NCBI GenBank assembly: GCA_951406725.2
Contig: OX597839.1
Coordinates: forward strand, 33,790,001 to 33,854,000
DNA: 64,000 nucleotides
Direction of reading: 5' to 3'
DNA from: Octopus vulgaris
Lineage: Eukaryota
Below are positions 973-24,471 of the stretch, one piece after another; the stretch's first letter is position 1, and every line of letters begins with the position of its first letter. Made by a program: the position numbers and the translations under genes. The notes beneath the pieces were generated by a model. It was not told where the DNA came from. It did no database searches and saw only the letters and a program-made list of their open reading frames with translations.

Positions 973-1260
973 TTGATCTAAAAGATCAAATATCTTAAAA
1001 TGTTTCGATTTTTTCAAGGCTGACATCAATTAATCTGAAACATTCGGAAGTTTCTTGAATATATAATCATGTAACTTTCGTATTTGGTGGTCAGTTTTTC
1101 TTTCGGACATTATTCCATTTTTATATCCCTCAGTCAATAAACCATTGGATAAAGCATGATCTAAAAATGATCCGATATCGTCCACGGGTTTTACAAAATA
1201 AACTCGGGTTTGCATAAATCGTTCCATAGAAATATGATCTACTTCTTGTTCACTGCTCAC
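973..1260 (-). pseudogene. Decayed CARD-only copy (type C)
   Basis: GTG stands where paralogs have ATG. In-frame TAA at 1030-1032 replaces a Lys codon. Homology continues (LMSALKKSKHFKIFDLLD) and then stops, with no protease domain. Confidence 0.8.
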
Positions 1261-1556
1261 GTTTATATAAAATTATAGATATTAAAATAATAGAAATCTG
1301 TAAAAAAATATCAATATTCATCGGGAATAAAAAGCTAAAGAGTCAACCGTTTCACTTCCTGGTTTGCGAAGGCAAAAACGATCGGTGTAATGAAATTTGA
1401 TTAAATGCGACAATTATATTTATACAGAGACACACATATAAAGCGGACTTAAAGAATGCAGACCGATTCCACTTGGCTTTTTTTTGGGGGGGTTTTTTTT
1501 TACAGAATGGGGGATTCTGAAAAAAAATAACAGAAGTGGGTGCCGTCCACATATGA

Positions 1557-2313: not shown

Positions 2314-3366
2314 TTAATCTGTGGCTCGAAGAATCACCTTTCTCTTCAAGGTGGAATAACAACTTGAAACCTGATCCTTGGAAATCTCTTTGCATTCCTT
2401 CGAAACTTCTGAATTTATATCAGATGATAATGAAGAGATGTCACATCTATATTTGTTCCTTTCATAAACACTGATTAAACTTTTTATGAAAACAGTACCA
2501 CTTGCCTCAGTTCGGTAAGCCTTGCCTTCTGGAACGGTGGCAAAAGTAACATAGAGATCTGGAACCTTGAAATATTGCCCGATGTATTCCTTTTCAGAAT
2601 TACTTTCGCCAGCGCTGCTACATTCTGCGCCATCCTTGACTTGAATTTCACTTCGACAAGTATTTTCTTTAGTTGAATTAGGTTTAACTTGACAAGTGTT
2701 TACATAAATGAGTTTTGGTTTGTCTTTCAGCTCAGGAGTCTTTAGAATGGTATTAATAGTGGAATAAGATAATTCCTTACCATCAGTTCCAATAATATTC
2801 CCTACAGTCCCATGGGACATCAAGAACATAACGAAACAATCTTCACTGGCTGTACTTTTTCTAGCTTCTTTTGTAATTATATTTTTCATTTCTTCCGCTG
2901 TTTTCTTTTCAGCTTCATCAGAGGTAACTTCGAAGTTGAAAGCCTTGAAAAGTTTTCTGATACCTTTCACATCCATTTCGCTTCCGAGCCTTTTATTGTA
3001 TTTACTCTCATCGTCAAATTTTAAATTGTTTATTAATACAACTCGACCGTGTGGTTTGTTTTTCATCGGGTAGACTGTCACTTCGTCTAAAAGATCAAAT
3101 ATCTTAAAATGTTTCGACTCTTTCAAGGCTGACATCAATTTCTCTGAATCATACGGAAGTTTTTTATGTATATAATCATGTAACTTTCGTGTTTGGTCGT
3201 CAGGATTTCTCTCGGACATTATTCTATTTTCATGTGCCTTAGTCAATAAACCACTGGGCACAGCATAATCTAAAAATGATCTGATATCGTCCATGTGGTC
3301 TATAAATTTAACTCGGATTTCCTTAAATCGTTCCTGAGAAATTTGATGTCCTTGTTCATTGCTCAT
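2314..3366 (-). CDS. CARD-caspase (C14-like), type A, 350 aa, putatively active
   Basis: N-terminal CARD pattern, then YPMKNKPHGRVVLINN, RLGSEMD, FVMFLMSHG (catalytic His), KDKPKLIYVNTCQ (Cys225) and the small-subunit motif DLYVTFATVPEGKAYRT..SGTVFI. Uninterrupted ORF. Confidence 0.93.
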   Translation of the reverse strand: MSNEQGHQISQERFKEIRVKFIDHMDDIRSFLDYAVPSGLLTKAHENRIMSERNPDDQTRKLHDYIHKKLPYDSEKLMSALKESKHFKIFDLLDEVTVYPMKNKPHGRVVLINNLKFDDESKYNKRLGSEMDVKGIRKLFKAFNFEVTSDEAEKKTAEEMKNIITKEARKSTASEDCFVMFLMSHGTVGNIIGTDGKELSYSTINTILKTPELKDKPKLIYVNTCQVKPNSTKENTCRSEIQVKDGAECSSAGESNSEKEYIGQYFKVPDLYVTFATVPEGKAYRTEASGTVFIKSLISVYERNKYRCDISSLSSDINSEVSKECKEISKDQVSSCYSTLKRKVILRATD

Positions 3367-3447: not shown

Positions 3448-3493
3448 TTTCACTTCCTGGTTTGCGAAGGCAAAAATGTTACGTGTGACGTCA
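3448..3493 (-). promoter_or_regulatory. ETS-IRF composite-like site (GGAAGTGAAACT) plus CRE palindrome TGACGTCA upstream of caspase A
   Basis: GGAAGTGAAA recurs 82-92 nt upstream of seven starts (150, 1350, 3448, 5592, 9124, 10349, 12446) and in degenerate form at 24272. Confidence 0.5.
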
Positions 3494-3731: not shown

Positions 3732-3895
3732 CGTCTGTCTCGTTGGCCAGACGTGATTAATGGGACAGTCGGACAGACGTTGGCCAGACGTTGGCCAGAC
3801 GTGATTAAAGGGTCAGTCGGACAGACGTTGGCCAGACGTGATTAAAGGGTCAGTCGGACAGACGTTGGCCAGACGTGATTAATGGGTCAGTCGGC
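3732..3895. repeat. 37-bp minisatellite, short array (~4 units)
   Basis: Unit gttggccagacgtgattaaagggtcagtcggacagac. Confidence 0.9.
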
Positions 3896-5162: not shown

Positions 5163-5507
5163 TTAAGGTTTAACGTACATACCATCGTTGTTCAATTTCT
5201 TTATATTTTCTGACGGATCGTCTAATAGCTCGAGAATTTCCTTATGGTTTGACTTTTTCAAAGCCGACACAAATTTACGGGACCCATCTAGTAGTTTCTT
5301 ACCTAGGATTTCGTGTAACCGTCGTTTCTGATTGTTAGAATCTCTTTCAGACATTATGCTCTCTTTATGGCTATCAGTCAGCAAACCATTGGATAAAGCT
5401 TCATCTAAAAATGATTTGATATCGTCCATGTGTTTTACAAAATCAACTCGGAGTTTTTGAAATTGATCCTTAGAAATATAAAATACTTGGTCGTCATTCA
5501 TGCTCAT
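5163..5507 (-). CDS. CARD-only protein, 114 aa (type-B CARD, protease domain deleted)
   Basis: First 99 aa match ORF 7927-9039 with 8 substitutions. After DDPS the sequence jumps directly into the caspase 3' flank. ATG and upstream region are intact. Confidence 0.75.
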
Positions 5508-7926: not shown

Positions 7927-9039
7927 TTAATCTGTGGCTCGAAGAATCACCTTTCTCTTCAAGGTGGAATAACAACTTGAAACCTGATCCATGTTAATCT
8001 CTTTGAATTCCTTCGAAACTTTTGATTTTATATCAAGTGATAATGATGAGATGTCACATCTATCTTTGTTCCTTTCATAAACACTGATTAGACTTTTTAT
8101 GAAAAAAGAACCGCTTTCCTCAGTTCGGTAAGCAAGGCCTTCTGGAACGGAGGCAAAAGTAACATAGAGATCTGGAACGTTGAAATATTGCCCGATGTAT
8201 TCCTTTTCAGAATTACTTTCGACAGCGCTGCTACATTCTGCGTCAACTTTGACTTGAGTTTCACTTCGACAAGTATTTTCTTTAGTTGAAGAAGCGTCGG
8301 TGCCTTTCGGGATATTATCCTTCTCATGTTTAAATTGATAAGTATTTACATAAATGAGCTTTGGTTTGTCTTTCAGCGGAGACCTCTTCTCTGGATCGTC
8401 GTTAATAGTGTCCTTTAGAGCGTCGTTAATAGTGGAATAAGATAATTCCTTACCATCAGTTCCAATGATACTCCCTCTAACACCATGTGACATCAAGAAC
8501 ATAACGAAACAATCTTCACGGGCTGTACTTTCCTGCGATGCTTTCTCAATTATTCCTTCCATTTCCTCGGCCGTTTTATTAGAATAAAGTTGAACTTCGA
8601 AATTGAAAGCCTTGAAAAGTTTCGTGATACCTTCCACATCCTTTTCGCTTCCGAGCCTTTCATTGTATTTACTCCCAACGGGAAATTTCACATTATTTAT
8701 TAATATAACACGACCATGAAGTTTGAATTTCATCGGGTAGACTGACGGATCGTCTAATAGCTTGAGAATTTCCTTATGGTTTGACTTTTTCAAAGCCGAC
8801 ACAAATTTACGGGACCCATCCGGTAGTTTCTTACCTAGGATTTCGTGTAACCGTCGTTTCTGATTGTTAGAATCACTTTCAGACATTATGCTCTCTTTAT
8901 TGCTATTAGTCAGCAAACCATTGGATAAAGCTTCATCTAAAAATGATTCGATATCGTCCATGAGTTTTACAAAATCAACTCGGAGTTTTTGAAATTGATC
9001 CTTAGAAATATAATATACTTGGTCGTCATTCATGCTCAT
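7927..9039 (-). CDS. CARD pseudo-caspase, type B, 370 aa (catalytic Cys replaced by Tyr)
   Basis: Full caspase motif set including SHG, but KPKLIYVNTYQF; codon TAT at 8338-8340 where paralogs have TGT. Confidence 0.9.
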   Translation of the reverse strand: MSMNDDQVYYISKDQFQKLRVDFVKLMDDIESFLDEALSNGLLTNSNKESIMSESDSNNQKRRLHEILGKKLPDGSRKFVSALKKSNHKEILKLLDDPSVYPMKFKLHGRVILINNVKFPVGSKYNERLGSEKDVEGITKLFKAFNFEVQLYSNKTAEEMEGIIEKASQESTAREDCFVMFLMSHGVRGSIIGTDGKELSYSTINDALKDTINDDPEKRSPLKDKPKLIYVNTYQFKHEKDNIPKGTDASSTKENTCRSETQVKVDAECSSAVESNSEKEYIGQYFNVPDLYVTFASVPEGLAYRTEESGSFFIKSLISVYERNKDRCDISSLSLDIKSKVSKEFKEINMDQVSSCYSTLKRKVILRATD

Positions 9040-10161
9040 ATAAAGTTCTTAATATGAAAACAATATAAATCTCTAAAAATATCAATTTTTACCTGGAAAA
9101 GAAAAAAGCAAAACAGTCCACCCTTTCACTTCCTGGTTTACGAAGTGAAACGTTTCGGGTAATGTAGTCTGCTCAGTTCGATGACTTCATTAACTGAGCC
9201 TAGTTATTTACAAACACATATATTTCATTGGCTCTTGTTAAATTTCCTTCAACCAATCAAATTTTCTTCAAAGTTCTGGATAGTTTTCCGCTGATGACGT
9301 AAATCAAAGTTATTTTTACTCTTAGAAACCAATAACAAAGAAACTACAAATATTTAAAGTCATGTCATTTAAGCGATTAAATAGTTTCACCTGAATACTT
9401 TTAGAAAATGCGCATTTCACATAGTTCTAACCGATTGTGTTACACTGAGAAGATTTGATGTTCGTGGGTCAGCGAAACATGCAATATAAAAATGAAGAGA
9501 AAGAAGGAAGCTGTTTCTTACAGATTTTATTTTCCTGTTAATTCGATGTTACTGTCAGAACACAAAATGCTGTGGCAGTCGGCCGTTTTACAATGCTAAG
9601 GGCGAAAATAACAAAGACAAAACGAGAGCATGTTTGGTAATAACTGCGTCTGTTGCGGATGTTAGGAAGAAGTGATTTTCTAAAAATACTGTGAGTGCGT
9701 CGTGTGAAAGTGAAAACGATTGTTACCGAATATTCTGAGAGGATTCGTAGTTATACATGTTGGATTGTTGAATGTGGATCGGAGTAGAATGGGAAACGAA
9801 TTCGCTTATCTCCATTTACCTCTATTTTACCCCGAAATGCTGAGTTAAACAATAGAACTTATCTAAGTTTGACGGTCGAACTTGGAATGTTTCAGACGAG
9901 TTGATGTCAGCCTTGAAAAAGTCATGTCATGCGTGTGTGTGTGTCTGTGTGTGTGTGTCTGTGTGTTTGGAGAAGGGGAGAGAGACAAAAAGAGAAAAGG
10001 GAAACTAAAAATAAGGGATTAAGGGGAAAAAAATTGTGTTGATATTTATACCACAACATATATATACACAGACTTATACATGAAATATTTGGAAAAAAAC
10101 CTTTTATTGGTTCAAAATGAACAACTAAATTACACCATCTTGAAAATTGTATATCATAGGA

Positions 10162-10257
10162 AAATGATCCGAGATCGTCCACGTGTTTTACAAAATAAAC
10201 TCGGATTTGCATAAATCGTTCCTGAGAAATATGATGTACTTCTTGTTCACTGCTCAC
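10162..10257 (-). pseudogene. Truncated type-C CARD remnant
   Basis: GTG start, SSEQEVHHISQERFMQIRVYFVKHVDDLGSF, then fused to unrelated sequence also present at ~6400-6617. Confidence 0.8.
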
Positions 10258-10555
10258 GTTTATATAAAATTATAGATATTAAAATAATAGAAATCTGTAA
10301 AAAAAAATATCAATATTCATCGGGAATAAAAAGCTAAAGAGTCAACCGTTTCACTTCCTGGTTTGCGAAGGCAAAAACGATCGGTGTAATGAAATTTGAT
10401 TAAATGCGACAATTATATTTATACAGAGACACACATATAAAGCGGACTTAAAGAATGCAGACCGATTCCACTTGGCTTTTTTTGGGGGGATTTTTTTTAC
10501 AGAATGGGGGATTCTGAAAAAAAATAACAGAAGTGGGTGCCGTCCACATATGAAT

Positions 10556-11322: not shown

Positions 11323-12364
11323 TTAATCTGTGGCTCGAAGAATCACCTTTCTCTTCAAGGTGGAATAACAACTTGAAACCTGATCCTTGGAAATCTCTTT
11401 GCATTCCTTCGAAACTTCTGAATTAATATCAGATGATAATGAATGAGATGTCACATCTATCTTTGTTCCTTTCATAAACACTGATTAGACTTTTTATGAA
11501 AAAAGAACCACTTTCCTCAGTTCGGTAAGCAAGGCCTTCTGGAACGGTGGCAAAAGTAACATAGAGATCTGGAACGTTGAAATATTGATCGGGGTGTTCC
11601 TTTTCAGAATTACTTTCGCCAGCGCTGCTACATTCTGCGCCATCCTTGACTTGAATTTCACTTCGACAAGTATTTTCTTTAGTTGAATTAGGTTTAACTT
11701 GACAAGTATTTACATAAATGAGTTTTGGTTTGTCTTTCAGCTCAGGAGTCTTTAGAATGGTATTAATAGTGGAATAAGATAATTCCTTACCATCAGTTCC
11801 AATGATATTCCCTACAGTCCCATGGGACATCAAGAACATAACGAAACAGTCTTCACTGGCTGTACTTTTTTTAGCTTCTTTTGTAATTATATTTTTCATT
11901 TCTTCCGCTGTTTTATTTTTAGCTTCTTTGAAGTTGAAAGCCTTGAAAAGTTCCGTGATACCTTTCACATCCTTTTCGCTTCCGAGCCTTTTCTTGTATT
12001 TCTTCTTATCGTCAAATTCTAAATTATTTATTAATACAACTCGACCGTGTGGTTTGTTTTTCATCGGGTAGACTGTCACTTCGTCTAAAAGATCAAATAT
12101 CTTAAAATGTTTCGACTCTTTCAAGGCTGACATCAATTTCTCTGAATCATACGGAAGTTTTTTATATATATAATCATGTAACTTTCGTGTTTGGTCGTCA
12201 GAATTTGTTTTGGACATTATTTCATTTTCATGTCCCTTAGTCAATAAACCACTGGGCACAGCAAAATCTAAAAATGATCTGATATCGTCCATGTGTTCTT
12301 TAAAATCAACTCGGATTTGCATAAATCGTTGCTGAGAAATTTTATGTCCTTGTTCATTGTTCAT
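11323..12364 (-). CDS. CARD-caspase type A' with +1 frameshift near 11443 (pseudogene, truncated protein or assembly error)
   Basis: The 311-aa ORF has SHG and NTCQ (Cys221). The missing C-terminus (..KRKVILRATD*) is intact in another frame down to 11323. Confidence 0.85.
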
Positions 12365-12731
12365 GTTTGTATAAGATTATAGATGTTAAATCAAGAGAAA
12401 TCTGTAAAAATTATCAATTTTCACTGAGAAAATAAAGTTCAACAGTTTCACTTCCTGGTTTGCGAAGGCAAAAATGTTACGTGTGACGTCAGCCGATGAA
12501 ATCTGACAATGATATTTATATAGTGACACAGGTATATAAGTATGTGTGTGTGTGTGTGCACGCACGTGTGTTTGCGTTATGAATTATAATATGCCATCAT
12601 TAATTCCTCTCTACAATAGTAAATAATAAGTAAAAATATAAATATCTCATTTTGCGTTAAGTACGAAAGTGCGGCGTAATGTTTATAGATGGTTATTGTC
12701 CTTATCTAATAACAAACAACTCGTCTGTCTC

Positions 12732-13293
12732 GTTGGCCAGACGTGATTAATGGGACAGTCGGACAGACGTTGGCCAGACGTTGGCCAGACGTGATTAAAG
12801 GGAAAGTCGGACAGACGTTGGCCAGACGTGATTAAAGGGTCAGTCGGACAGACGTTGGCCAGACGTGATTAAAGGGACAGTCGGACAGACGTTGGCCAGA
12901 CGTGATTAAAGGGACAGTCGGACAGACGTTGGCCAGACGTGATTAAAGGGTCAGTCGGGCAGACGTTGGCCAGACGTGATTAAAGGGACAGTCGGACAGA
13001 CGTTGGCCAGACGTGATTAAAGGGACAGTCGGACAGACGTTGGCCAGACGTGATTAATGGGTCAGTCGGACAGACGTGATTAAAGGGTCAGTCGGACAGA
13101 CGTTGGCCAGACGTGATTAACGGGACAGTCGGACAGACGTTGGCCAGACGTGATTAAAGGGTCAGTCGGACAGACGTTGGCCAGACGTGATTAATGGGTC
13201 AGTCGGACAGACGTTGGACAGACGTTGGCCAGACGTGATTAAAGGGACAGTCGGACAGACGTTGGCCAGACGTGATTAAAGGGTCAGTCGGCG
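12732..13293. repeat. 37-bp minisatellite, long array (~15 units)
   Basis: Same unit as 3732-3895, expanded. Confidence 0.92.
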
Positions 13294-21137: not shown

Positions 21138-21595
21138 ATTGGATACGCCCGTGTGTGTGTGTGTGCAAGAATATTGGATATACCCGTGTGTGTGTGCACA
21201 AGAATATTGGATATACCCGTGTGTGTGTGTGCAAGAATATTGGATATATTCGTGTGTGTGTGTAAGAATATTGGATATACCCATGTGTGTGTGTGTAAGA
21301 ATATTGGATATACCCATGTGTGTGTGTGTAAGAATATTGGATATACCCTGTGTGTGTGGGTAAGAATATTGGATATACCTGTGTGTGTGTGTAAGAATAT
21401 TGGATATACCTGTGTGTGTGGGTAAGAATATTGGATATACCCGTGTGTGTGTGTAAGAATATTGGATATACCCGTGTGTGTGTGTAAGAATATTGGATAT
21501 ACCTGTGTGTGTGTGTGTAAGAATATTGGATATACCCGTGTGTGTGTGTAAGAATATTGGATATACCCTGTGTGTGTGTGTAAGAATATTGGATT
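21138..21595. repeat. ~30-bp minisatellite aagaatattggatatacc(cg)(tg)n
   Basis: About 15 visible tandem units. Confidence 0.92.
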
Positions 21596-21904
21596 TACTC
21601 ATTGAAAATGTTGGTAATTTGACAAGAAAGGAAAGTATGAGAGACAAATTGCATTGAATAAGATAGAAAATAAGGTGAATAGTTGTTGGGTGAAGAGAAG
21701 AAGAGATAGAGCAATGGTGATGCTGGAACTGTATGCAAAGGGTGGGTCACATTTACTGGCAGGGGAGGTGGAAATATTGGGGAAGGATTGGGATGGGATG
21801 ATGGAGGGGCTTCAGACTCAGTGAAGAATTTTAAGAACCTGGAAGAATGGGGGGGGGGGGATTTACAAGAGATATTGGTAAGACTGAATACATATTATCT
21901 CTCT

Positions 21905-22126
21905 GCTACCCACAAGGGGCTAAACACAGAGGGGACAAACAAGGACAGACGAAGGGATTAAGTCGATCACATCGACCCCAGTGCGTAACTGGTACTTAAT
22001 TTATCGACCCCAAAAGGATGAAAGGCAAAGTCGACCTCGGCGGAATTTGAACTCAGAACGTAAAGCCAAACGAAATACGGCTAAGCATTTCGCCCAGTGC
22101 GCTAACGGTTCTGCCAGCTCGCCGCC
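21905..22126 (-). mobile_element. tRNA-derived SINE, family 2 (MetaSINE-like core)
   Basis: Head ggcggcgagctggcagaa..gagttcaaattcc and core gtcgactttgcctttcatcc..ggggtcgataaattaagtaccag. Confidence 0.8.
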
Positions 22127-22199
22127 TGAATACATATAGCAGAGAATTGGTGAAGCCATGAGTCCAATGACAAAGGAAGCGAGATCCAGTTGCCATTAT

Positions 22200-22530
22200 T
22201 GGTGGTGAAAGCAATGTTCAGGTGTTGTCGGAGAGAAAACGGATGAAGAAAATCAATTTAAATTGGAGAACCATATTTCCTTTGATTGGGGAAAGGAATT
22301 CTGTTGTAATTGAAGGAGCTTCTCGCTGAGTTTCGGTCAGCGTTTAGTGATAAGTTGAGTTGTTTAAGGGATTTTAAGACAAAGTTATCTGTTGACATGA
22401 CATCACCACAAGATCATCCTGTGCCGTATTCAGTTATGGACCAAATTCAGAAGGAACAGGATTAAATAGGGAGTCAAACTTAATCTTGTTGGACTTCCCT
22501 CATCGTGTTGGCACCCCAAAGATGATTTTG
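22200..22530 (+). mobile_element. Degraded Ty3/Gypsy pol remnant
   Basis: Fragments KINLNW, LKELLAEFRSAFSDKLSCLRDFK, PVPYSVMDQI and WTSLIVLAP resemble the protease-RT junction (RPVPY...WAxPIVVVPK). Confidence 0.55.
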
Positions 22531-22626
22531 GTTCTGTCAGACAACGTGGAGTCTATAAGAGATCCATAAAGAGTCTGTGACGGAAGTCTTTCCGTCTCGT
22601 TTTCATAAAATGTGCTCAGCAGTCTA

Positions 22627-22990
22627 TGTTAGTTAGTTAGTTAGTTAATTTTTTGGCTCAAAAGCAAAAAGCAAGACCATGTAGGGGGACATGGAATTAA
22701 GTACAGGGTGGTGTTCATGTAAAGATTTCAGGCCATTTGAGGTCAAGGGAGACTTTGAACAAAGCGGTCGTCGGCATTTTCACCATCTTGTCTGGCAGCT
22801 TGTTCCACGGATCCGCAACCCGGACGGAGAAAGCTCATCTCCTTCGATTGAGATGAAATCGTTGCAGATAGAGCTTTTCAGAGTGACCCTGCAGCCGACG
22901 CTCAATGTTATGGACATGCAAATTCCAGCGCTTTATGGGTTAAAAACAGGTGGAAAATTGAGTGAACTTGGTTCGAGTCATGCATATCAG
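22627..22990 (-). mobile_element. CR1-type LINE 3' end with (TAAC)n tail
   Basis: Reverse frame reads FSVRVADPWNKLP..FKVSLD. The same tail occurs at ~50336-50413(+). Confidence 0.75.
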
Positions 22991-23244
22991 CTCAATAAAA
23001 TAAAATAAAGTTCTGCAGAGAAAAGGGTCTAACAAGCACCTCTCTTAAAATTGCTGGCTTTGTGTCGAAGTGAGAAATACTTTGTTTGAAGACGCAGGGT
23101 AAGAATTTATTTTGTGAAATCCCAAATCAGCATAGAATATAGTGGACGGGGGGCAGGTTTGGAAACATATAACGTACATACCATTGTTGTTTAAGTTCTT
23201 CGTGTTTGTAGGGAGCAAGAAGAGAAAATAAGGATAGGATTTGG

Positions 23245-24186
23245 TTAAATTGTGGCTCGAAGTATCACCTTTTTCTTCAAAGTGTTATAACTACTTGAAA
23301 TCTGACCAGATTCCTTGGGAATTTGAGCATGTATTTTAGGGGATAGTGAGTTGACGTCACACTTTTCTTTGTTCTTTTCATAAACACTGATTAAACTTTC
23401 GATGAAAACAGAACCACTTTCCTCAGTTCGGAAAGCCAAGTGTTCGGGAACAGTGGCAAAAGCAACATACAGATCTGCAACGTTGAAATATTCATTTTTC
23501 TTATCAGAACTAACTTGACAAGTGTTTATATAAATGAGTTTTGGTTTGTCTTTCAGCTCAGGAGTCTTTAGAATGGTATTAATAGTGGAATAAGATAATT
23601 CCTTACCATCTTTTCCAATAATATTCCCTATGGCCCCATGGGACATCAAGAACAAGACGAAACAATCTTCATTGGCTGTAGTTTTCTTAGCTTCTATTTC
23701 AATTATATATTCCATTTCCTTTGCCGTTCTATCTTTATAAGTTAGAACATCAAAACTGAACTCCTCGAAAAGTTTTTTAATACCCACCACATCCTTTTCG
23801 CTTCCGATCCTTTCTTTGTAATTCTTCCCATCGTCAAACTCTATATTATTTATTATTACAACACGCCCGTGTGGCTTAAACTTCATCGGGTAGACTTCTG
23901 GATCGTCTAATAACTCAAGTATTTGATCATGATTTGACTTTTTCAAGGCCGACACAAATTTCTCGGACCCATCCGGTAGCTTCCTTAATATATAATCATG
24001 CAACTGCCGTGCTTGATCGTAAACATTTTGCAGGGCTCCTATTCCCTGTTTATGTCCATCGGCCAATAAACCATTTGCCAAAGCTTCGTCGAGAAAGGAA
24101 TCGATATCGTCCATGGATTTTACAAATTTAACTCGGATTTTTACAAATTGTGCTTTAGAAATATGATGCATTCGTTCGGCGCTCAT
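23245..24186 (-). CDS. Divergent CARD-caspase type D, 313 aa, short inter-subunit linker
   Basis: CARD, YPMKFKPHGRVVIINN, RIGSEKD, FLMSHG, KPKLIYINTCQ (Cys223), DLYVAFATVPEHLAFRT. Uninterrupted ORF. Confidence 0.93.
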   Translation of the reverse strand: MSAERMHHISKAQFVKIRVKFVKSMDDIDSFLDEALANGLLADGHKQGIGALQNVYDQARQLHDYILRKLPDGSEKFVSALKKSNHDQILELLDDPEVYPMKFKPHGRVVIINNIEFDDGKNYKERIGSEKDVVGIKKLFEEFSFDVLTYKDRTAKEMEYIIEIEAKKTTANEDCFVLFLMSHGAIGNIIGKDGKELSYSTINTILKTPELKDKPKLIYINTCQVSSDKKNEYFNVADLYVAFATVPEHLAFRTEESGSVFIESLISVYEKNKEKCDVNSLSPKIHAQIPKESGQISSSYNTLKKKVILRATI

Positions 24187-24471
24187 GTTTGTATAGAATT
24201 ATAAATATCAAAACAATTTAAATAAGTTCAAAAAGAGTCACAAATTATACTTAAAAGTTTGGGTCCGCCCTCTTCGCTTCCTGGTTCCCGCAACATTGAC
24301 GGTGTACGACGCTTAAAGTAACCTGTTTTAGTTTTGTTCCGGGTCATGATGAAATAATGCTGGTTATTTACAAATATATATACTTTATAATTATCTGAGA
24401 TCGTGTGCTGGAACGAAAACAATTTCAGTGTGGAAGGTGTTTATAAGCCATTTAAGAAACACACAAAAGCC

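What the first reader, a model, noticed from the sequence alone, without database searches (positions are those of the whole stretch)
2686..2700. Non-canonical active-site pentapeptide NTCQV in place of QACxG
Seen: copies A, A' and D all read (V/I)NTCQV, and the dead copy reads NTYQF. The catalytic His (SHG) and both S1 arginines (RxGS and A[YF]RT) are retained. Known: the Gln of QACxG (caspase-1 Gln283) lines the Asp-binding S1 pocket and the Gly is near-invariant. Inference: a distinct caspase subfamily with an altered S1 pocket or activity, conserved even in the divergent D paralog.
Basis: partly seen in the sequence, partly recalled or inferred. Interest (0 to 1): 0.75.

Follow-up and report, generated by a model that had tools for sequence, protein, structure and literature searches.

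The report
Octopus immune caspases with reshaped pocket
A tandem cluster of about 21 octopus caspase genes has asparagine where textbook caspases have a substrate-binding glutamine, and many copies have a very short internal linker; these likely immune-induced enzymes would still cut after acidic residues, but may be switched on differently from known caspases.

Summary
NTCQV is at 2686-2700 (minus strand), in a single-ORF CARD-caspase that belongs to a cluster of 21 copies in an Octopus genome. The family motif is N-[TAS]-[CY]-[QER]-x, not a fixed NTCQV.

The two changes have different ages. Gly is already absent in the sister group, the squid and cuttlefish CARD-caspases (Euprymna QACQP, published; Sepia QTCQI). 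Gln-to-Asn is octopod-wide (22 of 22 proteins, including Argonauta). The His and both S1 arginines are largely kept and dN/dS is about 0.5, so an active, acid-directed enzyme is the likeliest reading; this is untested. A non-acidic specificity is unlikely.

Many copies have a linker about 30 residues shorter than usual, lacking the loop Asp that caspase-3 needs. Nine copies carry Cys-to-Tyr. Primers for an LPS-induced Amphioctopus 'CASP8' map onto this family.

Deviant pentapeptides are common in molluscan caspase expansions, and Dronc is a precedent for a changed S1 Gln. It is a new variant of a known kind, of moderate interest.

The parts
2686..2700 (-). Catalytic pentapeptide NTCQV of copy A (Asn at the caspase-1 Gln283 position; Cys codon 2692-2694)
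2314..3366 (-). Copy A: intact single-ORF CARD-caspase, 350 aa, long-linker class (second NTCRS at 2650-2664; candidate KD/G cut site at 2629-2637)
   Evidence: AF2 pLDDT 90.4, linker 235-256 under 50
2809..2817 (-). SHG catalytic histidine of copy A
2977..2991 (-). RLGSE, first S1 arginine (Arg179 equivalent) of copy A
2509..2520 (-). AYRT, second S1 arginine (Arg341 equivalent) of copy A
7927..9039 (-). Copy B: intact 370-aa CARD-pseudocaspase, Cys-to-Tyr (NTYQF at 8332-8346), long linker with TD/A and VD/A sites
11323..12364 (-). Copy A': NTCQV at 11696-11710; a 1-nt insertion frameshifts the last helix and the final strand (broken copy or assembly slip)
23245..24186 (-). Copy D: intact 313-aa short-linker CARD-caspase, NTCQV at 23512-23526; counterparts in O. 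sinensis (90%) and O. bimaculoides (74%)
   Evidence: AF2 pLDDT 91.0; caspase fold by Foldseek
5163..5507 (-). CARD-only ORF (114 aa), a truncated duplicate with its own ATG and upstream motif
1030..1272 (-). Broken CARD remnant; a second remnant lies at 9922-10269
3448..3457 (-). GGAAGTGAAA about 80 nt upstream of the ATG of copy A (ETS/IRF-like; label recalled). Also at 9124-9133 and 12446-12455; variant GGAAGCGAAG at 24272-24281 before D

Best explanation
This is the active site of an octopod-specific, tandemly expanded family of single-ORF CARD-caspases that are likely immune-induced, would be activated by CARD-driven dimerisation, and are predicted to cut after Asp, perhaps also Glu. Shown: the fold, the residues, the clade, the copy classes and purifying selection. 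Inferred: the two arginines and Ser/Thr still hold an acidic P1, and Asn, one CH2 shorter than Gln, keeps the amide but loosens the pocket. The missing Gly goes with an older shortening of the loop after the catalytic Cys, shared with squid and cuttlefish. Short-linker copies such as D lack a conserved Asp cut site, so if they are active they would work as uncut single chains. Long-linker copies such as A have Asp-Ala or Asp-Gly sites and would be cut. Tyr copies and CARD-only remnants are by-products of duplication; some may act as decoys.
For: In 20 octopod proteins (P0003, P0020 and P0023 left out): Arg179 20/20, His 20/20, Asn 20/20, Cys 18/20, Arg341 19/20, Ser/Thr347 20/20, against 56 of 215 columns invariant. 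These residues define the acid S1 pocket (PMC2064784; PMC6438033; passages). Median dN/dS among 13 intact copies is 0.47 for the CARD, 0.48 for p20 and 0.58 for p10 (pairs with dS>0.1). AF2 pLDDT is 91.0 and 90.4, and all listed Foldseek hits are caspases. The sister clade is P0042/P0198 (SH-aLRT 96 with motif and linker columns dropped); these match Euprymna EsCasp10 (by eye) and Sepia esculenta 'caspase 10', and both keep an LD/A site. An oyster QACRS caspase is active without Gly. Dronc, lacking this Gln, cuts after Glu and Asp (PMC2180229). Amphioctopus 'CASP8' primers fit this family in frame at the published 109 bp with 7 mismatches in 37 nt; 0 of 100 shuffled pairs reached 10 or fewer. 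That gene is reported up at 6 h after LPS.
Against: No activity data exist. The Cys-to-beta5 distance is 16-22 aa in short copies against a median of 50 in 125 other domains. An Asp at Cys+6 is in 1 of 13 family members against 61 of 125 others, and caspase-3 needs that Asp169 (PMC6571611). Only 6 of 21 cluster copies are both intact and complete in Arg/His/Cys/Arg: 8 are broken, 4 intact ones have Tyr, 2 have Lys for Arg179 and 1 has Pro for Arg341 (read). The D model's lowest-rmsd hits include zymogens (1k88 2.5 A, 3h11 2.6 A; inhibitor-bound forms mostly 4-5.5 A), though disordered loops in those crystals could explain this. dN/dS pairs are not independent and trees of the parts disagree. 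The primer match is cross-genus, does not name a copy, and the octopus DED caspase-8 locus was not checked. No CARD adaptor or substrate was found.
Confidence: 0.55

Rival explanations
1. The family is catalytically weak or dead and works as a CARD scaffold or decoy, like cFLIP. The lost loop prevents an ordered active site, and the catalytic residues linger for structural or binding reasons.
For: The loop-bundle Asp and about 30 linker residues are missing. 9 of 21 copies carry Tyr, and Tyr also occurs in O. bimaculoides P0017. The model's lowest-rmsd hits include zymogens.
Against: His and Arg179 are 20/20 and Arg341 19/20 across four species. Degenerate caspases elsewhere in this genome have lost such residues (L076-L078, L080). 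Five of 9 Tyr copies are broken against 3 of 12 Cys copies, which looks like decay of the Tyr class rather than of the whole family.
Confidence: 0.25
2. The Asn is a neutral substitution. The enzymes are ordinary Asp-only caspases, and the shared motif reflects common descent and gene conversion in a young cluster.
For: Asn occurs in 7 of 125 unrelated domains. Many copies are near-identical and mosaic. 26% of columns are invariant anyway.
Against: Asn is kept in Argonauta (50% identity) and in paralogs with dS of 0.3-0.6 in p20, while positions 2, 4 and 5 of the motif vary.
Confidence: 0.12
3. The S1 pocket has switched to a non-acidic P1, as in metacaspases or MALT1.
For: The Gln283 position is one of the residues that differ between caspases and meta/paracaspases. 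Copy D has a weak Peptidase_C13 hit below cut-off.
Against: Basic-P1 enzymes have Asp at 283, Asp/Glu at 341 and Leu at 179. Here the residues are Asn, Arg and Arg. No paracaspase or metacaspase is among the listed Foldseek hits.
Confidence: 0.06

Closest known systems
Euprymna scolopes EsCasp9/EsCasp10 (QACQP; PMC9389742) and Sepia esculenta 'caspase 10' (WJV41817.1, QTCQI)
   Same: Sister clade. CARD plus caspase domain, no Gly in the pentapeptide, shortened linker, both arginines kept.
   Different: They keep Gln, have two CARDs (P0042) and an LD/A cut site, with a 29-33 aa Cys-to-beta5 distance. The octopod family has Asn, one CARD, 16-22 aa in short copies, and a large tandem expansion. 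The paper called the group specific to Euprymna; in the parts read, activity was measured in tissue, not on these enzymes.
Drosophila Dronc (PFCRG)
   Same: Long-prodomain caspase with the S1 Gln replaced; cleaves after Glu as well as Asp (PMC2180229).
   Different: Pro rather than Asn, and Gly kept. Not tested as a relative here.
Bivalve CARD-caspases with NACRG/NSCRG (Mytilus 'CASP9'/'caspase-2-like', Pinctada, Ylistrum)
   Same: The same Gln-to-Asn change and a CARD-type N-terminus.
   Different: A separate clade in the tree, so the change is convergent. Gly and a long linker are kept.
Human caspase-1/4/5 locus with CARD-only proteins, and caspase-8/cFLIP
   Same: Tandem CARD-caspases next to CARD-only and catalytically dead paralogs. 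cFLIP is a pseudoenzyme that heterodimerises with caspase-8 (bioRxiv 2023.01.04.522766). The CARD-only genes and cFLIP's Tyr at the Cys position are recalled.
   Different: No orthology shown. No adaptor, gasdermin or cytokine substrate identified here.

Membership tests
Caspases (MEROPS C14A) | Caspase fold / Peptidase_C14 domain | tested here: met
   Pfam E 1e-28 to 1e-33; Foldseek E about 1e-21, TM by target 0.8-0.89
Caspases (MEROPS C14A) | His-Gly and catalytic Cys | tested here: met
   Present in A, A' and D; Tyr in B and 8 other cluster copies
Caspases (MEROPS C14A) | S1 arginines 179 and 341, Ser347 | tested here: met
   20/20, 19/20 and Ser/Thr 20/20; P0003, left out of that count, has Lys at 179
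Caspases (MEROPS C14A) | QACxG pentapeptide with Gln283 | tested here: not met
   Asn in 22/22, Gly in 0/22. Not strictly defining: Dronc and many molluscan caspases also deviate
Caspases (MEROPS C14A) | Cleavable linker and loop-bundle Asp | tested here: inconclusive
   Asp-Ala/Gly sites in long-linker copies; no conserved site in D-type; Asp at Cys+6 in 1 of 13
Caspases (MEROPS C14A) | Cleavage after Asp | not testable with these tools
   Needs an enzyme assay
Coleoid QACQP/QTCQI CARD-caspase clade | One clade with EsCasp9/10-like and Sepia caspase-10 proteins, apart from other caspases | tested here: met
   FastTree 0.94 on 140 domains; SH-aLRT 96 on 66 domains without motif columns; no bootstrap, long branches
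Lophotrochozoan caspase-2 or caspase-Y | Groups with the reference sequences of Horkan/Krasovec-type phylogenies (PMC11463336) | tested here: inconclusive
   The deeper node is an open fork; that paper's reference sequences were not in the tree
Effector caspase-3/7 or DED caspase-8 (database names) | Short prodomain or tandem DEDs | tested here: not met
   Single N-terminal CARD; does not group with the genome's QACRG short-prodomain clusters
Metacaspase/paracaspase | Acidic S1 (Asp283, Asp/Glu341, no Arg179) | tested here: not met
   Asn, Arg, Arg

The most novel reading that the evidence does not exclude
Octopods have built their own inflammatory-caspase locus. It holds LPS-inducible CARD-caspases whose short-linker members are active as uncut single chains without the canonical loop bundle and cut after Glu as well as Asp. 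They are tuned by cFLIP-like Cys-to-Tyr paralogs, which arose more than once, and by CARD-only decoys from the same cluster.
Probability: 0.18. Interest if true: 0.72.

Novelty: new variant of a known kind. Interest (0 to 1): 0.42.

Why it matters
Molluscs and their relatives are reported to lack APAF-1 and PYCARD (PMC11463336, passages), so how their CARD-caspases signal is open. This family is a concrete, probably immune-induced candidate in octopus. It is mislabelled caspase-3/7/8-like in databases and probably measured under the name 'CASP8' in two expression papers. It is also a natural experiment on two conserved caspase features, the S1 Gln and the loop bundle, with Gln-bearing sister enzymes in squid and cuttlefish as controls. 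If the short-linker copies are active, a caspase can work without the loop architecture that caspase-3 needs. If only the pentapeptide differs, it is one more deviant molluscan caspase.

Tried and rejected
Expression: no RNA holder listed. Contigs of four runs guessed to be RNA were laid on copy D. Pieces cover about 21570-24420, but no splice joint was seen and no DNA control was laid, so nothing is claimed. No reads were laid on copies A and B, so their expression is open.

Complex prediction for the Cys copy with the Tyr copy was not available; nothing was folded. VIA-align comparisons were not obtained. Model coordinates could not be inspected, so pocket geometry was not measured.

Gasdermin (PF04598) in the own genome: no match, but the controls were silent too, so this is uninformative. 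A CARD search found no adaptor, only cluster copies, a CARD-only ORF on C18 and a distant CARD protein on C20.

The idea that the long linker is a duplication of the active-site DNA: only an 8-nt repeat, not supported. The second NTCRS as a substitute catalytic site: rejected, because it does not follow the PKLIYV strand and sits in the low-confidence linker.

Octocoral proteins as closest relatives: an effect of the word search; they fall outside the clade. The IQ-TREE codon runs printed no omega, so only counting estimates are given. In one search a trimming bug cut P0042, so the 'with decapods' count is not used.

Literature: 'caspase'+'NTCQ' gave 0 papers; 'octopus'+'caspase'+'QACXG' gave 2, and neither describes this motif in the passages read. 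The NACRG/NSCRG/NACQ search returned noise in the 15 of 114 papers listed. The Sepia esculenta search showed no paper on its caspase 10 among 15 of 59 listed. Subscription journals are not covered. Supplements were searched only for PMC9389742; those of the bivalve and lophotrochozoan papers may list octopus members. PMC12052993 gave nothing.

Full report
OBSERVATION. The minus strand at 2686-2700 encodes NTCQV, inside a 350-aa ORF (2314-3366) with CARD and Peptidase_C14 domains. The window holds three more copies: B (NTYQF, intact 370 aa), A' (NTCQV, 1-nt insertion near the end) and D (NTCQV, intact 313 aa). It also holds a CARD-only ORF and CARD remnants. HMMER alignments to human caspase-7 place Asn on the Gln and Val on the Gly of QACRG, and match both S1 arginines. 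AF2 models of D and A are confident (pLDDT 91.0 and 90.4), and every listed Foldseek hit is a caspase.

SETTING. The window is G000:C26:33.79-33.85 Mb. Named homologues on a contig of the same length are Octopus vulgaris proteins. The cluster spans 33.70-33.81 Mb and has 21 catalytic motifs: NTCQV 5, NTCQA 3, NTCEI 3, NTCEA 1, NTYQF 9. From the ORF lists, 13 copies are intact (9 Cys, 4 Tyr) and 8 are broken (3 Cys, 5 Tyr); some breaks may be assembly slips. Six copies are intact with Arg, His, Cys and Arg all present. Other single-ORF caspase clusters in this genome (C5, C19, C28) mostly read QACRG, so the genome has ordinary caspases too.

RANGE AND ORIGIN. Two word-based searches found close relatives only in O. 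vulgaris, O. sinensis, O. bimaculoides and Argonauta hians. All 22 that cover the site have Asn; none has Gly; 19 have Cys and 3 Tyr. A full HMMER scan of 1.84 billion representatives added one next relative, P0042 (E 1e-79), and a search with it added P0198. P0042's cluster matches Euprymna EsCasp10 in supplement file 3 of PMC9389742 (compared by eye). That paper (sections 8, 9 and passages read) notes a QACQP group it thought specific to Euprymna. P0198's cluster includes Sepia esculenta 'caspase 10', which reads QTCQI. The octopod family and these two form one clade: FastTree 0.94 on 140 domains, and SH-aLRT 96 on a 66-domain subset with motif and linker columns dropped (no bootstrap). So Gly loss and linker shortening likely predate the octopod-decapod split, and Gln-to-Asn likely arose in octopods. 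The deeper placement is unresolved.

HOW UNUSUAL. Among 125 other caspase domains, themselves the best hits of this family's profile plus outgroups, the Gln position is Gln in 111 and Asn in 7; the Gly position is Gly in 107. Named Asn carriers are caspases of Mytilus, Pinctada and Ylistrum, in a separate clade. In Mytilus coruscus, 40 caspase domains (78.4%) are reported to deviate from QACxG (PMC10967218 section 8). Oyster caspases also vary (PMC7836458, passages), and a QACRS oyster enzyme cleaves DEVD-pNA (PMC11543851, passages). Each change therefore has precedent. The combination, and the fixation of Asn across a whole expanded family, was not found in print by my searches.

THE LARGER ANOMALY IS THE LINKER. 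In short copies such as D, 16-22 residues separate the Cys from the next core strand. The figure is 29-33 in the decapod sisters and a median of 50 elsewhere, where only 4 of 125 have 25 or fewer. An Asp six residues after the Cys is in 61 of 125 others and 1 of 13 family members. In caspase-3 this Asp169 is needed for activity (PMC6571611, passages). The decapod proteins keep an LD/A site. The O. bimaculoides counterpart of D has no Asp in the linker before the p10 motif. Long-linker copies (50-61 residues) carry TD/A, VD/A, ED/A or KD/G in both O. vulgaris and O. bimaculoides; reading these as cut sites is inference.

SELECTION. In 20 octopod proteins, Arg179, His and Asn are 20/20, Arg341 is 19/20, Ser/Thr347 20/20 and Cys 18/20, while motif position 5 is among the fastest sites. 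56 of 215 columns are invariant, so this is suggestive, not decisive. Counting estimates of dN/dS among the 13 intact copies have medians of 0.47-0.58; for the whole caspase domain, 70 of 78 pairs had dS>0.1. Trees of CARD, p20 and p10 disagree, which points to gene conversion. The FKHEK-linker class has Cys in O. sinensis (P0008, P0011) and Tyr in O. vulgaris, and O. bimaculoides has its own Tyr copy that groups apart. This fits two origins of Tyr, but conversion could mimic that.

IMMUNE LINK. The 'CASP8' primers of two Amphioctopus fangsiao white-body studies (PMC11228953, PMC11252417) translate in frame as GITEL and EAEES and fit this family at exactly the stated 109 bp. The best fit has 7 mismatches in 37 nt, and the 14 best of 19 placements printed all lie in this cluster (506 kb searched). 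Other spacings gave 11-15 mismatches, except 103 bp, which is the A' copy with a deletion. None of 100 shuffled pairs reached 10 or fewer. The LPS paper reports the gene up at 6 h and down at 24 h (section 24). The poly I:C paper lists it as a hub gene; I did not see the direction. The true octopus caspase-8 locus was not tested against the primers. GGAAGTGAAA occurs 27 times in the 130-kb cluster, mostly about 80 nt before a CARD start, against once in 258 kb of other caspase loci. Much of this is duplication, but divergent copies keep a GGAAG core. Its likeness to an ETS/IRF element is recalled.

MECHANISM. Shown: fold, residues, clade, copy classes and constraint. From established knowledge: Arg179, Gln283, Arg341 and Ser347 form the acid pocket, and basic-P1 relatives replace them with acidic residues; Dronc, lacking the Gln, cuts after Glu and Asp. 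Inferred: these enzymes stay acid-directed, with a looser pocket; they are dimerised through the CARD after immune induction; short copies act uncut and long copies are cut; some Tyr and CARD-only copies may dampen them. I give this 0.55. A weak or dead scaffold family gets 0.25, neutral Asn 0.12 and a non-acidic switch 0.06. Against activity stand the missing loop Asp, the many broken copies, and zymogens among the lowest-rmsd structural hits.

VERDICT. The feature is real and marks a new variant of a known kind. The scan's earlier notes held only an unrelated serpin entry. Interest 0.42.

Noticed in passing
G000 C5:54.14-54.52 Mb, C19:7.04-7.13 Mb, C28:6.29-6.38 Mb (L041-L075): Three further tandem clusters of single-ORF, short-prodomain caspases, mostly QACRG. 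The Amphioctopus LPS-induced 'CASP3' primers fit the C5 cluster at the stated length, and the 'CASP7' primers fit loosely just beyond a C19 ORF.
   Followed up: partly
L090:5247-6050 (G000:C20:33.247 Mb): Single-ORF 267-aa protein with a clear CARD (E 2.6e-13) and a C-terminal part with no Pfam hit that by eye resembles a fully degenerate caspase domain.
   Followed up: partly
L060:2995-4035 (G000:C14:72.26 Mb): Lone caspase with SACRN, a short linker and a roughly 90-aa Glu/Lys-rich insertion between the first Arg and the His.
   Followed up: no
L061:2199-3416 (G000:C20:59.54 Mb): Single-ORF CARD-caspase with QACRD and a 22-residue linker, grouping with bivalve NACRG caspases: an independent short-linker, Gly-less caspase in the same genome.
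   Followed up: partly
L076, L077, L078, L080: Several intact-looking pseudo-caspase ORFs lacking the His, the Cys or both.
   Followed up: no
L089:4401-4703 and L069 (G000:C18:3.66 Mb; C13:72.197 Mb): Dispersed fragments of this family off the cluster: a CARD-only ORF on C18 and an NTYQI linker-plus-p10 fragment on C13.
   Followed up: no
window 3741-3894 and 12731-13291: 37-bp tandem repeat upstream of copies A and A', about 4 and 15 units.
   Followed up: no
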